DNA of 1,034 nucleotides from Naegleria gruberi (lineage: Eukaryota): assembly GCA_000004985.1 (NCBI GenBank), contig GG739604.1; one strand, written 5' to 3'. Position numbers and translations under genes: made by a program. The number at the start of each line of letters is the position of its first letter. The stretch's first letter is position 1. Positions 1 to 1,034 of the stretch are shown here, in pieces. Under the pieces are notes generated by a model. It saw nothing but the letters and a program-made list of their open reading frames with translations, did no database searches and had not been told where the DNA came from.

Positions 1-186
1 AATTGTTTTACTGATCTTGGAAATCTTCTTAATAGCATGTCCTGTTGCATCAGAAACAATAAGGTCACCATTGGACAATCTTGCAATCTTTTGTGGATCA
101 ACAAATTCTCCATTTCCACCAGCAAATGTACTAATTCCGTATATATAGGTTGCAGCTTCGTTGTTGGAATTGCCAGATGTAACATT
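1..186 (-). other. Downstream NHL-like segment that resumes after the EGF cassette (probable start of a further beta-propeller blade)
   Basis: The segment NVTSGNSNNEAATYIYGISTFAGGNGEFVDPQKIARLSNGDLIVSDATGHAIKKISKISKTI contains STFAGGNGE and GDLIVSDATGHAIKKI. These resemble the T-hAG-x-G and G-x-hYIAD-x-x-N-x-hRKI elements of the upstream NHL blades. The match is looser than for blades A-C. Confidence 0.45.
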
Positions 187-1034
187 ACAATTAGAACCAG
201 TCCATAAACCAGTGCATGAACATTGATCCAAAGATAAACAAGAACCGTGACCTCCACAAACAGAGCTATCATTTGAAGCAACACCAAAACATGAAGTGAC
301 ATTACAGTTTGCACTATACCATCCTTGTTTGCAAACACAAGTTTCAGTATTGACACAAGAACCATGTCCACTACAAACAGAATTATCATTTGAAGAAACA
401 CCAGAGCATGAAGTAATGTTACAGTTTGCGCCAGACCATCCTTGTTGACAAACACAAGTGTCAGTATCAAAACATAATCCATTTCCATTACAAGCAGAAT
501 TTTCACTAGCGTCTACATCATAACACACGGTTTGCTTGGTGGAGAGTAATCTAATTCTACCATTTTTAGCATCAGCAATATAAATTTCAACATCTGAAAC
601 AACCAAAATACCAGTTGGAAGAGATAATCCTCTTGAGGTGGCAATTCTACCATCAGAGAAAGAGGCAGTACCATTACCGGCAATTGAGACAATAGTACCA
701 TTGGTTAAAACCATTCTGACTCTGTTATTGTCAGTATCAGCAATCAACATTTCACCATTTGAGAGGAATGCAACATCAGTTGGATGATTCAAATTGGCAG
801 CAGTGGCCAAAATATTGTCACCATTGAATGGTCCAGCACCAGTACCAGCAATTGTTGTAATAACTCCACTAACATCAATCTTTCTAACTTTGAAATTATT
901 ACTATCTGAAATGTAAACTTCATCATTAACAACTCTAACACCATAAGCTTGAGATAAGGCAGCACTTATTGCTTGACCACCATCTCCAATATGACCTGAT
1001 TGACCATTACCAGCAAATGTGACAATAGTGCCAT
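1..1034 (-). CDS. Internal fragment of a large extracellular multidomain protein (NHL repeats, three EGF-like modules, then an NHL-like segment); partial at both ends
   Basis: The reverse-complement frame (codons at + positions 1030-1032 down to 1-3) has no stop in 344 codons, whereas every other frame is full of stops. The translation shows recognisable NHL-repeat and EGF-like motifs. Codon bias is strong and consistent (AGA/CAA/GAA/CCA/GGT), which argues for genuine coding sequence. There is no start or stop codon inside the window, so the gene extends beyond both edges. Confidence 0.9.
184..534 (-). repeat. Three tandem 117-nt coding repeat units (184-300, 301-417, 418-534) encoding the EGF-like modules
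   Basis: Direct alignment of + strand segments gives 241-300 vs 358-417 = 49/60 identical (82%) and 301-357 vs 418-474 = 47/57 identical (82%). The other halves of the units are more diverged, so similarity is mosaic. Confidence 0.8.
187..525 (-). other. Three tandem EGF-like cysteine-rich modules (non-calcium-binding type)
   Basis: Module 1 (nt 421-525) is CYDVDASENSACNGNGLCFDTDTCVCQQGWSGANC. Module 2 (nt 304-408) is CSGVSSNDNSVCSGHGSCVNTETCVCKQGWYSANC. Module 3 (nt 187-291) is CFGVASNDSSVCGGHGSCLSLDQCSCTGLWTGSNC. All three have six Cys with identical spacing C-x10-C-x5-C-x5-C-x-C-x8-C. The tail C-x-C-x2-G-W-x4-C fits the classical EGF-like signature (C-x-C-x(2)-[GP]-[FYW]-x(4,8)-C). The modules recur every 39 aa. 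None has a D-x-D-E-C calcium-binding motif at its N-terminus. Confidence 0.8.
541..1034 (-). other. NHL-repeat (beta-propeller blade) array, three blades
   Basis: Blade A (nt 877-1034) is TIVTFAGNGQSGHIGDGGQAISAALSQAYGVRVVNDEVYISDSNNFKVRKI. Blade B (nt 706-876) is VITTIAGTGAGPFNGDNILATAANLNHPTDVAFLSNGEMLIADTDNNRVRMVL. Blade C (nt 541-705) is TIVSIAGNGTASFSDGRIATSRGLSLPTGILVVSDVEIYIADAKNGRIRLLS. Each follows the NHL consensus (h-x-T-hAG-x-G ... GDGG-x-A ... L-x-x-P-x-Gh ... G-x-hYIAD-x-x-N-x-hR+h) with a period of about 55 aa. Confidence 0.8.

What the first reader, a model, noticed from the sequence alone, without database searches (positions are those of the whole stretch)
187..1034. Unusual domain order: NHL propeller blades, then three EGF-like modules, then an NHL-like blade
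In the best-known NHL-plus-EGF architecture, the teneurins, the EGF repeats sit N-terminal to the NHL propeller. Here three NHL blades come first, a cassette of three EGF-like modules follows, and the sequence after the cassette again looks NHL-like. Either this is an N-to-C arrangement different from teneurins, or a Cys-rich cassette has been inserted between blades of a propeller. Both would be a noteworthy architecture for an extracellular adhesion or receptor-like protein.
Basis: partly seen in the sequence, partly recalled or inferred. Interest (0 to 1): 0.6.

Follow-up and report, generated by a model that had tools for sequence, protein, structure and literature searches.

The report
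Naegleria NHL propeller–EGF tandem ectodomain fragment
This 1-kb Naegleria gruberi contig encodes a piece of a large surface-type protein in which six-bladed NHL propellers alternate with short runs of EGF modules, a beads-on-a-string design that is common in Naegleria and resembles LDL-receptor/LRP ectodomains, so it is real but fairly ordinary.

Summary
The minus strand carries one open frame (344 codons, open at both ends). It encodes three NHL blades (nt 1032-541), three six-cysteine EGF modules with an exact 39-aa period (nt 525-187), then an NHL-like unit (nt 153-19).

The window is an entire small contig of Naegleria gruberi (100% match to a "predicted protein, partial"), so the full gene cannot be read from it.

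The tail is best read as the first blade of a second propeller, not a blade of the upstream propeller with the EGF modules looped out:
- It is 82% identical to the mature N-terminus, directly after the signal peptide, of a soil heterolobosean-like NHL protein (P0121).
- It carries the opening-strand motif seen at other propeller starts.
- The junction from the window's last blade into EGF1 matches the end of a complete six-bladed propeller in relatives.

NHL-then-EGF is the usual order in this group. N. gruberi XP_002670943.1 alternates roughly six-blade NHL spans with EGF blocks several times, and XP_002673894.1 is signal peptide, ~18 NHL blades, 13 EGF, TM helix, kinase.

The order differs from teneurins. 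In type-I relatives with a C-terminal TM helix, the EGF run lies between the NHL blades and the membrane, as in type-II teneurins. The design parallels the LRP6 YWTD-propeller/EGF arrays. I rate it a new member of a catalogued but uncharacterised protein group, of low to moderate interest.

The parts
868..1032 (-). NHL blade, aa 1-55 (GTIVTFAGNG...KVRKIDV). The frame runs off the contig end, so more blades are expected upstream. By alignment to relatives this is about the fourth blade of a six-bladed propeller.
   Evidence: Own NHL blade HMM 58.3 bits. Pfam NHL and TEN_NHL. AlphaFold2 pLDDT 84-94. Aligns to the third-from-last blade of P0019/P0057/P0099.
700..867 (-). NHL blade, aa 56-111 (GVITTIAGTGAGPFNGDN...NNRVRMVLTN).
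   Evidence: Best Pfam NHL stretch at aa 81-106. Own HMM 74.7 bits. pLDDT 83-96.
541..699 (-). NHL blade, aa 112-164, inferred to be the last blade of the upstream propeller. It contributes three core strands (139-146, 149-154, 159-164) and is followed directly by the EGF junction STKQTVCYDV.
   Evidence: Own HMM 51.6 bits. The junction is conserved with P0019 (SHRTKCYSIW) and P0099 (SNRAKCYGVW). In the P0008 model the last blade likewise contributes only three strands before the EGF run.
421..525 (-). EGF-like module 1, aa 170-204, six Cys (C-x10-C-x5-C-x5-C-x-C-x8-C), followed by the N-glycosylation sequon NITS.
   Evidence: Pfam EGF_Teneurin best stretch 180-206 and EGF PF00008 at 178-203. 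Cys positions. Own EGF HMM 37.0 bits. Sequon.
304..408 (-). EGF-like module 2, aa 209-243, six Cys, followed by the sequon NVTS.
   Evidence: Pfam EGF_2 best stretch 215-243. Own HMM 42.0 bits. 75% nt identity to module 1. Part of the 117-nt tandem repeat.
187..291 (-). EGF-like module 3, aa 248-282, six Cys, followed by the sequon NVTS.
   Evidence: Own HMM 46.1 bits. Pfam gives three EGF stretches. Cys positions.
154..186 (-). Short linker, aa 283-293 (NVTSGNSNNEA), between EGF3 and the next propeller. It is in frame and leaves no room for a stop codon, TM helix or signal peptide.
   Evidence: Read directly from the translation. GC and GC3 are continuous with the flanks.
19..153 (-). Opening strand (TYIYGISTFAGG) plus first blade (PQKIARLSNGDLIVSDATGHAIKKIS) of a second NHL propeller, aa 294-338.
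   Evidence: 82% identity (37/45) to P0121 residues 26-70, which follow its signal peptide directly. phmmer 66.9 bits to P0121, against 21 bits or less to any other blade. Pfam NHL 20.2 bits, E 5.6e-4. Iterated blade HMM 13.5 bits. The same opening motif occurs at propeller starts in P0008, P0131, P0172 and P0228. Three beta-strands are predicted at 315-337, but with low pLDDT.
1..18 (-). aa 339-344 (KISKTI), probably the start of the next strand. The frame runs off the contig end.
   Evidence: Translation. P0121 continues at this position with NGVVTTIAG and further blades.
236..505 (.). 117-nt (39-codon) tandem DNA repeat underlying the EGF cassette: 2.3 copies, 81% matches.
   Evidence: Tandem Repeats Finder, score 344. 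Module nt identities are 56-75%.

Best explanation
The window is an internal fragment of the extracellular part of a large Naegleria gruberi surface or secreted protein. That protein is built as beads on a string: a six-bladed NHL beta-propeller, a short rigid rod of three disulphide-bonded EGF modules with a glycosylation sequon after each, then the start of a second NHL propeller.

The window catches the last three blades of propeller 1, the whole EGF rod, and the opening strand plus first blade of propeller 2.

How it most likely works (inferred): each propeller closes on itself and offers a ligand-binding face. The EGF rods act as spacers or stalks that hold the propellers apart and away from the membrane. 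The missing C-terminal part probably carries more EGF modules and a transmembrane anchor, possibly with a signalling tail as in paralogues.

Shown here: the domain identities, their order, the homology of the tail to a propeller-start blade, and the existence of the same alternating design in complete Naegleria proteins. Inferred: the number of blades outside the window, the membrane anchoring, and any adhesion or receptor function.
For: 1. Real coding sequence. There is one open frame of 344 codons, with chance probability about 2e-11. It is a 100% match to N. gruberi 'predicted protein, partial' P0001, whose longest contig is 1034 bp.

2. Domains. NHL x3, EGF x3 and a fourth NHL stretch.

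3. The tail is a propeller start.
- P0121 is a signal peptide followed by a mature N-terminus that is 82% identical to window aa 294-338, then ordinary NHL blades.
- It is the only strong match of the tail: 66.9 bits, against 21 bits or less for any other blade.
- The aromatic-x-hydrophobic...T-x-AGG opening strand recurs right after signal peptides in P0131 and P0172, and at the N-termini of P0008 and P0228.

4. The upstream propeller needs nothing from the tail.
- The junction from the window's blade 3 into EGF1 aligns with the end of the propeller in P0019, P0057 and P0099.
- The P0008 model (pLDDT 85-98 over the propeller) has 1 N-terminal strand, 5 blades of 4 strands, and 3 final strands. 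That is 24 strands, as six four-stranded blades closed by the protein's own N-terminal strand would give.
- That model superposes on solved six-bladed NHL propellers: 9ifo at E 7e-36, then SOQ1, teneurin-2 and NHLRC2.

5. The same tandem design occurs in complete proteins.
- N. gruberi XP_002670943.1 (P0182, on a 244-kb scaffold) runs EGF, a 310-aa NHL span, EGF x4, a 327-aa NHL span, then a run of about 18 EGF. Six blade cores are found in the first span and five in the second, which also has a blade-sized gap.
- Metagenomic P0145 has 15 EGF followed by at least 5 NHL blades after an 8-aa linker.

6. Extracellular context in relatives.
- P0131 has a signal peptide, about 18 NHL blades, 13 EGF, a TM helix and a protein kinase.
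- P0008 has a hydrophobic helix after EGF3.
- P0182 carries PKD and REJ domains.
- The window has N-x-T sequons after each EGF.

7. No sign of a chimera. GC is 0.37 and GC3 0.16-0.25 in all three segments.
Against: - The full gene is not available. The numbers of blades upstream and downstream are unknown, so a split propeller is not formally excluded.
- The first-blade assignment rests mainly on one close relative, P0121. That sequence is a protein-level assembly from a soil sample (SRC catalogue) and is itself partial.
- AlphaFold2 models the tail with low confidence (pLDDT 29-49) and does not form the ISTFAG strand. The model therefore neither docks the tail on the upstream blades nor shows it as independent.
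- P0182 is a gene model. Its blade counts come from my own HMMs and a regex, and one blade in each span is weak or only inferred from spacing.
- I could not inspect model coordinates, so closure of the P0008 propeller by its N-terminal strand is inferred from the strand count, not observed.
- No experimental data exist on location or function.
Confidence: 0.75

Rival explanations
1. Split propeller. The three EGF modules are an excursion inserted between blades (or between strands) of a single NHL propeller, and the tail blade returns to complete the same ring as the upstream blades.
For: - The last blade before the EGF cassette contributes only three strands and needs a fourth from elsewhere. 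The tail begins with exactly such a strand (ISTFAG).
- The full gene is unavailable, so the blade count cannot be checked.
Against: - In P0008 the strand count fits the fourth strand coming from the propeller's own N-terminus.
- The tail is homologous to a unit that sits directly after a signal peptide in P0121, where no upstream blades exist.
- In P0182 each NHL span between EGF blocks is about 310-327 aa, the size of six blades.
- AlphaFold2 gives no confident packing of the tail on blades 1-3.
- The blade-to-EGF junction is the same as in proteins that end after their EGF run.
Confidence: 0.1
2. Assembly artefact. The 1-kb contig is a chimeric join of two different NHL/EGF genes (for example the 3' part of an NHL-EGF gene and the 5' mature part of a P0121-like gene), so the EGF-to-NHL junction does not exist in the genome.
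For: - The contig is tiny and unplaced, and it belongs to a repeat-rich family. A second N. gruberi NHL fragment, P0061, also sits on a 1358-bp contig.
- The tail matches the N-terminal end of another protein, P0121.
Against: - The reading frame is kept across the junction with only an 11-aa linker, and no remnant of a signal peptide, stop codon or UTR.
- Base composition and GC3 are uniform across the segments.
- EGF-to-NHL junctions with short linkers (8-21 aa) occur independently in P0182 on a 244-kb scaffold and in P0145 on an 11-kb contig.
Confidence: 0.07
3. Teneurin relative. The fragment belongs to a Naegleria teneurin-like protein (EGF + NHL + YD shell + toxin-like C-terminus) with rearranged domain order.
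For: - The best Pfam models are the teneurin-derived ones: EGF_Teneurin and TEN_NHL.
- The best PDB sequence match is a 'teneurin-like protein', 9pt5/9ifo, E 1e-76.
- Teneurin-2 and teneurin-3 NHL domains also match.
Against: - The domain order is reversed.
- The PDB matches cover only the NHL blades.
- Pfam finds no YD, RHS or Tox-GHH domain in the Naegleria and metagenomic relatives P0131, P0182, P0145 and P0124. They carry a kinase, PKD/REJ, or filamin/IQ instead.
- EGF_TEN scores 38.8 bits, below its cutoff of 65.
Confidence: 0.05

Closest known systems
Naegleria NHL-EGF multidomain proteins: N. gruberi XP_002670943.1 (NAEGRDRAFT_53247, P0182) and XP_002673894.1 (NAEGRDRAFT_70916, P0131); N. 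lovaniensis XP_044547544.1 and XP_044553224.1; N. fowleri XP_044567495.1. All are annotated only as predicted or EGF-like-domain proteins.
   Same: - They have the same two domain types and the same NHL-then-EGF order. P0182 has the same EGF-to-NHL return with short linkers.
- The EGF subtype is the same: C-x-C-x2-G-[WY]-x-G-x2-C, with an N-x-[ST] sequon after the last Cys.
- Identity to the window is 34-45%.
   Different: - None is the window's own gene; the best identity is 45%.
- The numbers of blades and EGF modules differ: 12-18 contiguous blades and 3-25 EGF modules.
- The C-terminal parts differ (kinase, PKD/REJ). The window's own C-terminus is unknown.
LDL-receptor family ectodomains (LRP5/6, LRP1, LDLR): tandem pairs of a YWTD six-bladed beta-propeller and an EGF-like domain
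   Same: - Both alternate six-bladed propellers with EGF modules along a type-I ectodomain. LRP6 has four propeller-EGF pairs, and each propeller is a ligand platform (PMC8621929, read).
- The same logic appears in P0182 and in the window's N3-E3-N1.
   Different: - The blades here are NHL (PF01436), not YWTD/LDL-receptor class B. Pfam gave no Ldl_recept_b hit.
- There are three or more EGF modules per spacer rather than one.
- No LDL-A repeats were seen in relatives.
- This is an analogy of design, not membership.
Teneurins (metazoan type-II membrane proteins: EGF x8, then NHL propeller, then YD shell)
   Same: - The NHL propeller subtype and the EGF subtype are the best-matching Pfam models. 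Structural matches are to teneurin-2, -3 and -4.
- In both, an EGF run lies between the NHL propeller and the membrane. The teneurin domain list comes from PMC6297184. The type-I relatives here have the TM helix C-terminal to the EGF run.
   Different: - The N-to-C order is reversed.
- No YD/RHS shell or toxin-like domain is found in any relative examined.
- Relatives are type-I, with a signal peptide and a C-terminal TM helix, rather than type-II.
- Propellers are repeated.
Bacterial NHL-repeat surface proteins, including the bacterial 'teneurin-like protein' (PDB 9ifo/9pt5)
   Same: The NHL blades are 43-51% identical to many bacterial NHL proteins and 46% to 9ifo in structural alignment. 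The long-loop GxGxxGxxGDGGxAxxAxL blade subtype is the same.
   Different: The bacterial proteins among the listed hits carry no EGF modules in their Pfam annotation. Their partners are T9SS sorting, PKD or Ig-like domains.

Membership tests
NHL repeat / six-bladed NHL beta-propeller (Pfam PF01436, clan of six-bladed propellers) | Sequence matches the NHL repeat model above the curated cutoff, in tandem copies of about 45-56 aa | tested here: met
   PF01436 at 71 bits against a cutoff of 20, 4 stretches. Blades lie at aa 1-54, 56-111 and 112-164. The tail alone scores 20.2 bits, E 5.6e-4.
NHL repeat / six-bladed NHL beta-propeller (Pfam PF01436, clan of six-bladed propellers) | Six blades forming a closed ring | not testable with these tools
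   The window holds only 3 + 1 blades and is the whole contig. In relative P0008, six blades are modelled at pLDDT 85-98 and superpose on solved NHL propellers.
EGF-like domain (PF07974 EGF_2 / PF23106 EGF_Teneurin) | Six conserved cysteines in about 35 aa with the C-x-C and G-[WYF]-x-G core, scoring above the Pfam cutoffs | tested here: met
   EGF_Teneurin 59.8 bits (cutoff 24.3) and EGF_2 52.6 bits (cutoff 22.1), 3 stretches each. 18 Cys as 3 x 6 with a 39-aa period.
Teneurin | EGF repeats N-terminal to the NHL propeller on a type-II membrane protein | tested here: not met
   The order in the window is NHL, EGF, NHL. Relatives have an N-terminal signal peptide and a TM helix C-terminal to the EGF run.
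Teneurin | YD-repeat/RHS shell and a Tox-GHH-like C-terminal domain | not testable with these tools
   The C-terminus of this gene lies outside the contig. Pfam scans of relatives P0131, P0145, P0182 and P0124 show no YD or RHS domains.
Teneurin | Full teneurin EGF region model (PF25024 EGF_TEN) above cutoff | tested here: not met
   38.8 bits against a cutoff of 65; 42.4 bits for the cassette alone.
LDL-receptor / LRP family | YWTD (LDL-receptor class B) propeller blades | tested here: not met
   No Ldl_recept_b hit at E <= 1. The blades are NHL.
LDL-receptor / LRP family | Alternation of six-bladed propellers with EGF modules along the ectodomain | tested here: met
   The window parses as N3-E3-N1. 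P0182 has roughly six-blade NHL spans between EGF blocks. The LRP6 design is taken from PMC8621929.
LDL-receptor / LRP family | LDL-receptor class A (complement-type) ligand-binding repeats | tested here: inconclusive
   None in the window and none in the relatives scanned. The rest of this gene is unseen.
Naegleria NHL-EGF surface-protein group (informal; P0182, P0131, P0211, P0141, P0228) | Same organism or genus, NHL blades followed by EGF modules of the same subtype, with a conserved blade-to-EGF junction | tested here: met
   100% match to an N. gruberi protein. 34-45% identity to the group. Junctions aligned. Names and taxa.
Naegleria NHL-EGF surface-protein group (informal; P0182, P0131, P0211, P0141, P0228) | Signal peptide and transmembrane anchor (extracellular location) | not testable with these tools
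   Both ends of the gene lie outside the contig. They are present in relatives P0131 (signal peptide and TM), P0172 and P0141 (signal peptide) and P0008 (TM), by reading the sequences.

The most novel reading that the evidence does not exclude
Heterolobosean amoebae such as Naegleria have independently assembled LRP-like receptor ectodomains: tandem arrays of a six-bladed propeller followed by an EGF rod. They use bacterial-type NHL propellers in place of YWTD propellers, and couple the arrays to kinase, polycystin/REJ or filamin-repeat tails. Other unnamed giant proteins in the hit list do the same with RCC1 propellers. The window would be a piece of a still-unassembled giant member whose EGF cassette is expanding by recent 117-nt tandem duplication. 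That would be convergent invention of a metazoan-style receptor design in Discoba.
Probability: 0.4. Interest if true: 0.45.

Novelty: new member of a known kind. Interest (0 to 1): 0.22.

Why it matters
For this window, very little changes. It is a fragment of an uncharacterised but already catalogued protein group, and both domain families are textbook ones.

The wider pattern has modest value. Naegleria species, including the pathogen N. fowleri, encode many large type-I proteins whose ectodomains alternate NHL propellers with EGF rods, attached to kinase, PKD/REJ or other tails. In my literature searches I found no paper that describes them. They are candidate adhesion or sensing receptors. 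They also offer a case of propeller/EGF tandem architecture outside animals, which bears on how such modular ectodomains evolve.

The result also corrects a tempting inference. A reversed N-to-C order relative to teneurins does not imply a new spatial arrangement, because the relatives have the opposite membrane topology.

Tried and rejected
1. Getting the full gene. The window is the whole contig, and the exact-protein lookup of P0001 found no contig on record. The exhaustive search found no long protein more than 50% identical; the best Naegleria relative is 45%.

2. Metagenome scan with the EGF3-to-tail junction peptide: 302 pattern matches, none confirmed.

3. Metagenome scan with P0121: only distant generic NHL loci at 35-48% identity over most matches, uninformative for the junction and not analysed further.

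4. Word-indexed search with the EGF2-tail segment returned only P0121 and missed P0001 itself. All hits were 601 aa or shorter. I inferred a hit-length ceiling near 1.75 times the query and switched to the exhaustive search.

5. A 42-sequence alignment (A2) put bacterial NHL repeats under the EGF columns. I discarded it for structure prediction and used A1 instead.

6. AlphaFold2 on the fragment, to see whether the tail docks on blades 1-3: the tail has low confidence, so the result is inconclusive.

7. afdb50 fold search, to survey architectures: the library was not available.

8. Literature. No paper holds Naegleria + NHL repeat + EGF together. The Naegleria + teneurin hits concern toxin and immunity domains, not this architecture.

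9. RNA genes in the window: none.

10. Teneurin membership was considered and rejected (see the membership test).

11. A reading with two adjacent genes or read-through was rejected. Only 11 residues separate EGF3 from the tail homology, with no stop codon, TM helix or signal peptide.
Full report
**What is in the window**

Of the six frames, only minus-strand frame 3 is open. It has 0 stops in 344 codons, while the other frames have 5-48 stops. From base composition, an accidental open frame of this length has probability about 2e-11. The frame runs off both ends of the window.

The translation is 100% identical to a 340-aa 'predicted protein, partial' of Naegleria gruberi. The longest contig on record for that protein is 1034 bp. 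The window is thus an entire small unplaced contig, and the exact-protein lookup found no other contig. No Rfam family matches either strand.

**Checking the observation**

Pfam finds the following on the translation:
- NHL PF01436 at 71 bits, E 4.6e-20, four stretches.
- EGF_Teneurin at 59.8 bits and EGF_2 at 52.6 bits, three stretches each.
- TEN_NHL at 41.5 bits.

The three blades lie at aa 1-54, 56-111 and 112-164, which is nt 1032-541.

The 18 cysteines form three sets of six with an exact 39-residue period. The EGF modules lie at aa 170-204, 209-243 and 248-282, which is nt 525-187. At the DNA level the cassette is a 117-nt tandem repeat, 2.3 copies, 81% matches. Module-to-module identity is 56-75% at the nucleotide level, which suggests fairly recent tandem duplication.

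The tail scanned alone (aa 283-344) reaches Pfam NHL at 20.2 bits, E 5.6e-4, right at the gathering cutoff. An iterated blade HMM that I built from relatives also recognises it.

**What the tail is**

A search with the EGF2-to-tail segment returned one protein, P0121. It is a 131-aa partial sequence from a soil protein-level assembly (SRC, SRR3989338). It consists of a signal peptide (MHKVQALIVAMVVVCLAVMTCLVHG) followed directly by ASFEYIDSTLAGGNGEFVDPQKIARLSNGDLIVSDAKGHSIKKIS. That stretch is 82% identical (37/45) to window aa 294-338. P0121 then continues into ordinary NHL blades.

When I searched the tail against every blade of the 271 proteins collected, P0121 scored 66.9 bits and nothing else exceeded 21 bits. 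The tail therefore corresponds to a unit that, in its one close relative, is the very first blade of a propeller.

The same opening strand (an aromatic, a hydrophobic, then T-x-AGG) is found:
- immediately after signal peptides in N. gruberi P0131 (LYNITTIAGGGS) and in P0172 (SYFIETAAGG);
- at the N-termini of P0008 (EYIYTFAGDG) and N. fowleri P0228 (YSVSTFAG).

The window has TYIYGISTFAGGNG.

**Does the upstream propeller need the tail?**

The window's third blade and its junction into EGF1 (STKQTVCYDV) align with the end of the propeller in relatives that simply terminate after their EGF run: P0019 SHRTKCYSIW and P0099 SNRAKCYGVW.

P0008 (511 aa) is a complete module: six blades, three EGF modules, a hydrophobic helix and a short tail. 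AlphaFold2 models its propeller at pLDDT 85-98. The model has one N-terminal strand (residues 14-19, YIYTFA), five blades of four strands, and a last blade with only three strands. That makes 24 strands, which is what six four-stranded blades closed by the protein's own N-terminal strand would give. I could not inspect coordinates, so the closure is inferred from the strand count.

The P0008 model superposes on solved six-bladed NHL propellers:
- the bacterial teneurin-like protein 9ifo, 46% identity, E 7e-36;
- SOQ1, teneurin-2 and NHLRC2.

By homology, the window's upstream propeller is closed by its own unseen N-terminal strand, and the ISTFAG strand of the tail belongs to the next propeller.

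AlphaFold2 on the window fragment gives these confidences:
- blades 1-3: pLDDT 85-96;
- EGF modules: 56-66;
- tail: 29-49, with three strands at blade positions but no confident placement.

This gives no support to a loop-out model, but it is not decisive either.

**Is the architecture unusual?**

The word-indexed search listed only proteins of 601 aa or less. I took this as a length ceiling and ran the exhaustive representative search instead. It returned giant proteins of 1,000-7,000 aa that match through up to 39 stretches.

I parsed all 271 collected proteins with my own blade and EGF HMMs. Seventeen entries, including this window and its database copy P0001, contain both domain types, and all of them have NHL-to-EGF transitions. 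Examples:
- P0008: N6-E3.
- P0019: N6-E5.
- N. gruberi XP_002673894.1 (P0131): N17-E13, then a long ectodomain stretch, a TM helix and a protein kinase.
- N. lovaniensis P0211: N18-E9. N. lovaniensis P0141: N12-E25.
- N. fowleri P0228: N18-E3.

EGF-to-NHL returns occur in several proteins:
- N. gruberi XP_002670943.1 (P0182, 4,502 aa, on a 244-kb scaffold) runs EGF (1900-1934), a 310-aa NHL span, EGF x4 (2245-2397), a 327-aa NHL span, a run of about 18 EGF, then PKD and REJ domains.
- In P0145, 15 EGF modules are followed after 8 residues by at least five blades.
- P0124 and P0125 also show such returns.

The two NHL spans in P0182 contain six and five recognisable blade cores. The second span also has a blade-sized gap. 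This fits whole propellers lying between EGF rods.

The window's N3-E3-N1 is thus a slice through a design that is routine in its own genome.

**Mechanism**

Shown:
- The protein is a chain of closed NHL propellers separated by short Cys-knotted EGF rods.
- Each EGF module is followed by an N-x-T sequon: NITS, NVTS, NVTS.

Inferred from relatives:
- It is extracellular, entering through a signal peptide (P0131, P0172, P0141, P0121, P0061).
- It is anchored by a TM helix C-terminal to the last EGF run (P0008, P0131, P0124).

Inferred from established knowledge of NHL propellers (teneurins: PMC6297184) and of LRP6 (four YWTD-propeller/EGF pairs in which each propeller is a ligand platform: PMC8621929):
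- The propellers are binding surfaces.
- The EGF rods are spacers or stalks.

**The reversed order relative to teneurins**

This has a simple topological reading. Teneurins are type-II proteins, so their N-terminal EGF run sits next to the membrane and the NHL propeller lies further out. The Naegleria relatives are type-I proteins, so the same spatial arrangement (membrane, EGF run, propeller) requires the opposite N-to-C order. This applies to the last propeller and EGF run before the membrane.

**Rivals**

- **Split propeller (0.10).** Disfavoured by P0121, by the junction homology, by the P0008 strand count and by the P0182 spacing. It is not excluded without the full gene.
- **Chimeric contig (0.07).** Disfavoured by the preserved frame, the 11-aa linker, uniform GC and GC3, and independent EGF-to-NHL junctions elsewhere.
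- **Teneurin relative (0.05).** Rejected on domain order, on the sub-threshold EGF_TEN score, and on the absence of YD/RHS domains in the relatives scanned.

**Comparison and novelty**

The closest relatives are uncharacterised Naegleria proteins already in public databases. The closest functional analogy is the propeller/EGF array of the LDLR/LRP family, but the blades here are NHL, not YWTD, so this is analogy and not membership.

No paper in the searchable library combines Naegleria, NHL repeat and EGF.

I rate this a new member of a known, catalogued kind, with interest about 0.2. The broader theme is propeller/EGF arrays in protists, including the RCC1-propeller/EGF2 arrays seen in passing. 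That theme is the only part with some wider appeal.

**Limits**

- The full gene is unseen.
- The first-blade argument leans on one partial, protein-assembled relative.
- Blade counts in P0182 come from my own models.
- Location and function are inferred, not tested.

Noticed in passing
window 236-505: The EGF cassette is a 117-nt (39-codon) tandem DNA repeat with 81% matches. Modules 1 and 2 are 75% identical at the nucleotide level but only 56% at the protein level. This suggests recent duplication of EGF units followed by amino-acid divergence.
   Followed up: partly
window 418-408, 301-291, 184-174 (aa 205-208, 244-247, 283-286): An N-x-T glycosylation sequon (NITS, NVTS, NVTS) follows the sixth cysteine of each EGF module. 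This fits a secreted or extracellular glycoprotein.
   Followed up: no
proteins P0127, P0130, P0139 (hits; source not looked up): These giant proteins (5.5-7 kaa) repeat an RCC1-type propeller of about 385 aa followed by two EGF modules 9-12 times, then carry 23-31 EGF modules. Pfam on a P0127 segment gives WD40_RLD at 480 bits plus EGF. This is a second propeller type used in the same alternating design.
   Followed up: partly
protein P0124 (JGI metagenome, 4722 aa), residues ~3270-4722: After about 60 EGF modules and a TM helix, the presumed cytoplasmic part has at least 9 filamin/ABP280 repeats (339 bits) and an IQ motif. This is an unusual tail for an EGF-rich receptor-like protein.
   Followed up: partly
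proteins P0131 (N. gruberi XP_002673894.1) and P0182 (XP_002670943.1): The NHL/EGF ectodomains are coupled to a protein kinase domain (P0131, 116 bits) or to PKD and REJ domains as in polycystin-1 and sperm REJ receptors (P0182, REJ 95.8 bits). They are candidate Naegleria receptor kinases or polycystin-like sensors.
   Followed up: partly
L001 424-1794 (-) and 2105-3850 (+), contig JBBCKJ010012907.1 of GCA_037189345.1: Two paralogous NHL-EGF genes (456 and 581 aa) sit head to head on one 4.2-kb contig of an assembly whose organism I did not identify. This indicates local gene duplication in this family.
   Followed up: no
window (whole contig) and P0061 (N. gruberi, 1358-bp contig): At least two N. 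gruberi NHL-repeat gene fragments sit on tiny unplaced contigs. This suggests that members of this repeat-rich family are collapsed or broken in the reference assembly.
   Followed up: no
window 541-1032 (NHL blades): The blades are as similar to bacterial NHL proteins (43-51% identity; 46% to PDB 9ifo for P0008) as to Naegleria paralogues (34-45%). This could reflect consensus-like repeats or a bacterial origin of the propeller. No phylogeny was done.
   Followed up: no
tool behaviour: All hits from the search for homologous proteins were at most about 1.75 times the query length (601 aa or less for a 344-aa query), and a 136-aa query missed the 340-aa self-match. Long multi-module relatives of a fragment are invisible to that search and only appeared in the exhaustive search.
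   Followed up: yes
literature, PMC12089049: An 'EGF-like domain-containing protein' (A0A6A5BKQ4, 105 kDa) is listed among N. fowleri excretion/secretion products. I did not check whether it is an NHL-EGF protein of this group.
   Followed up: no
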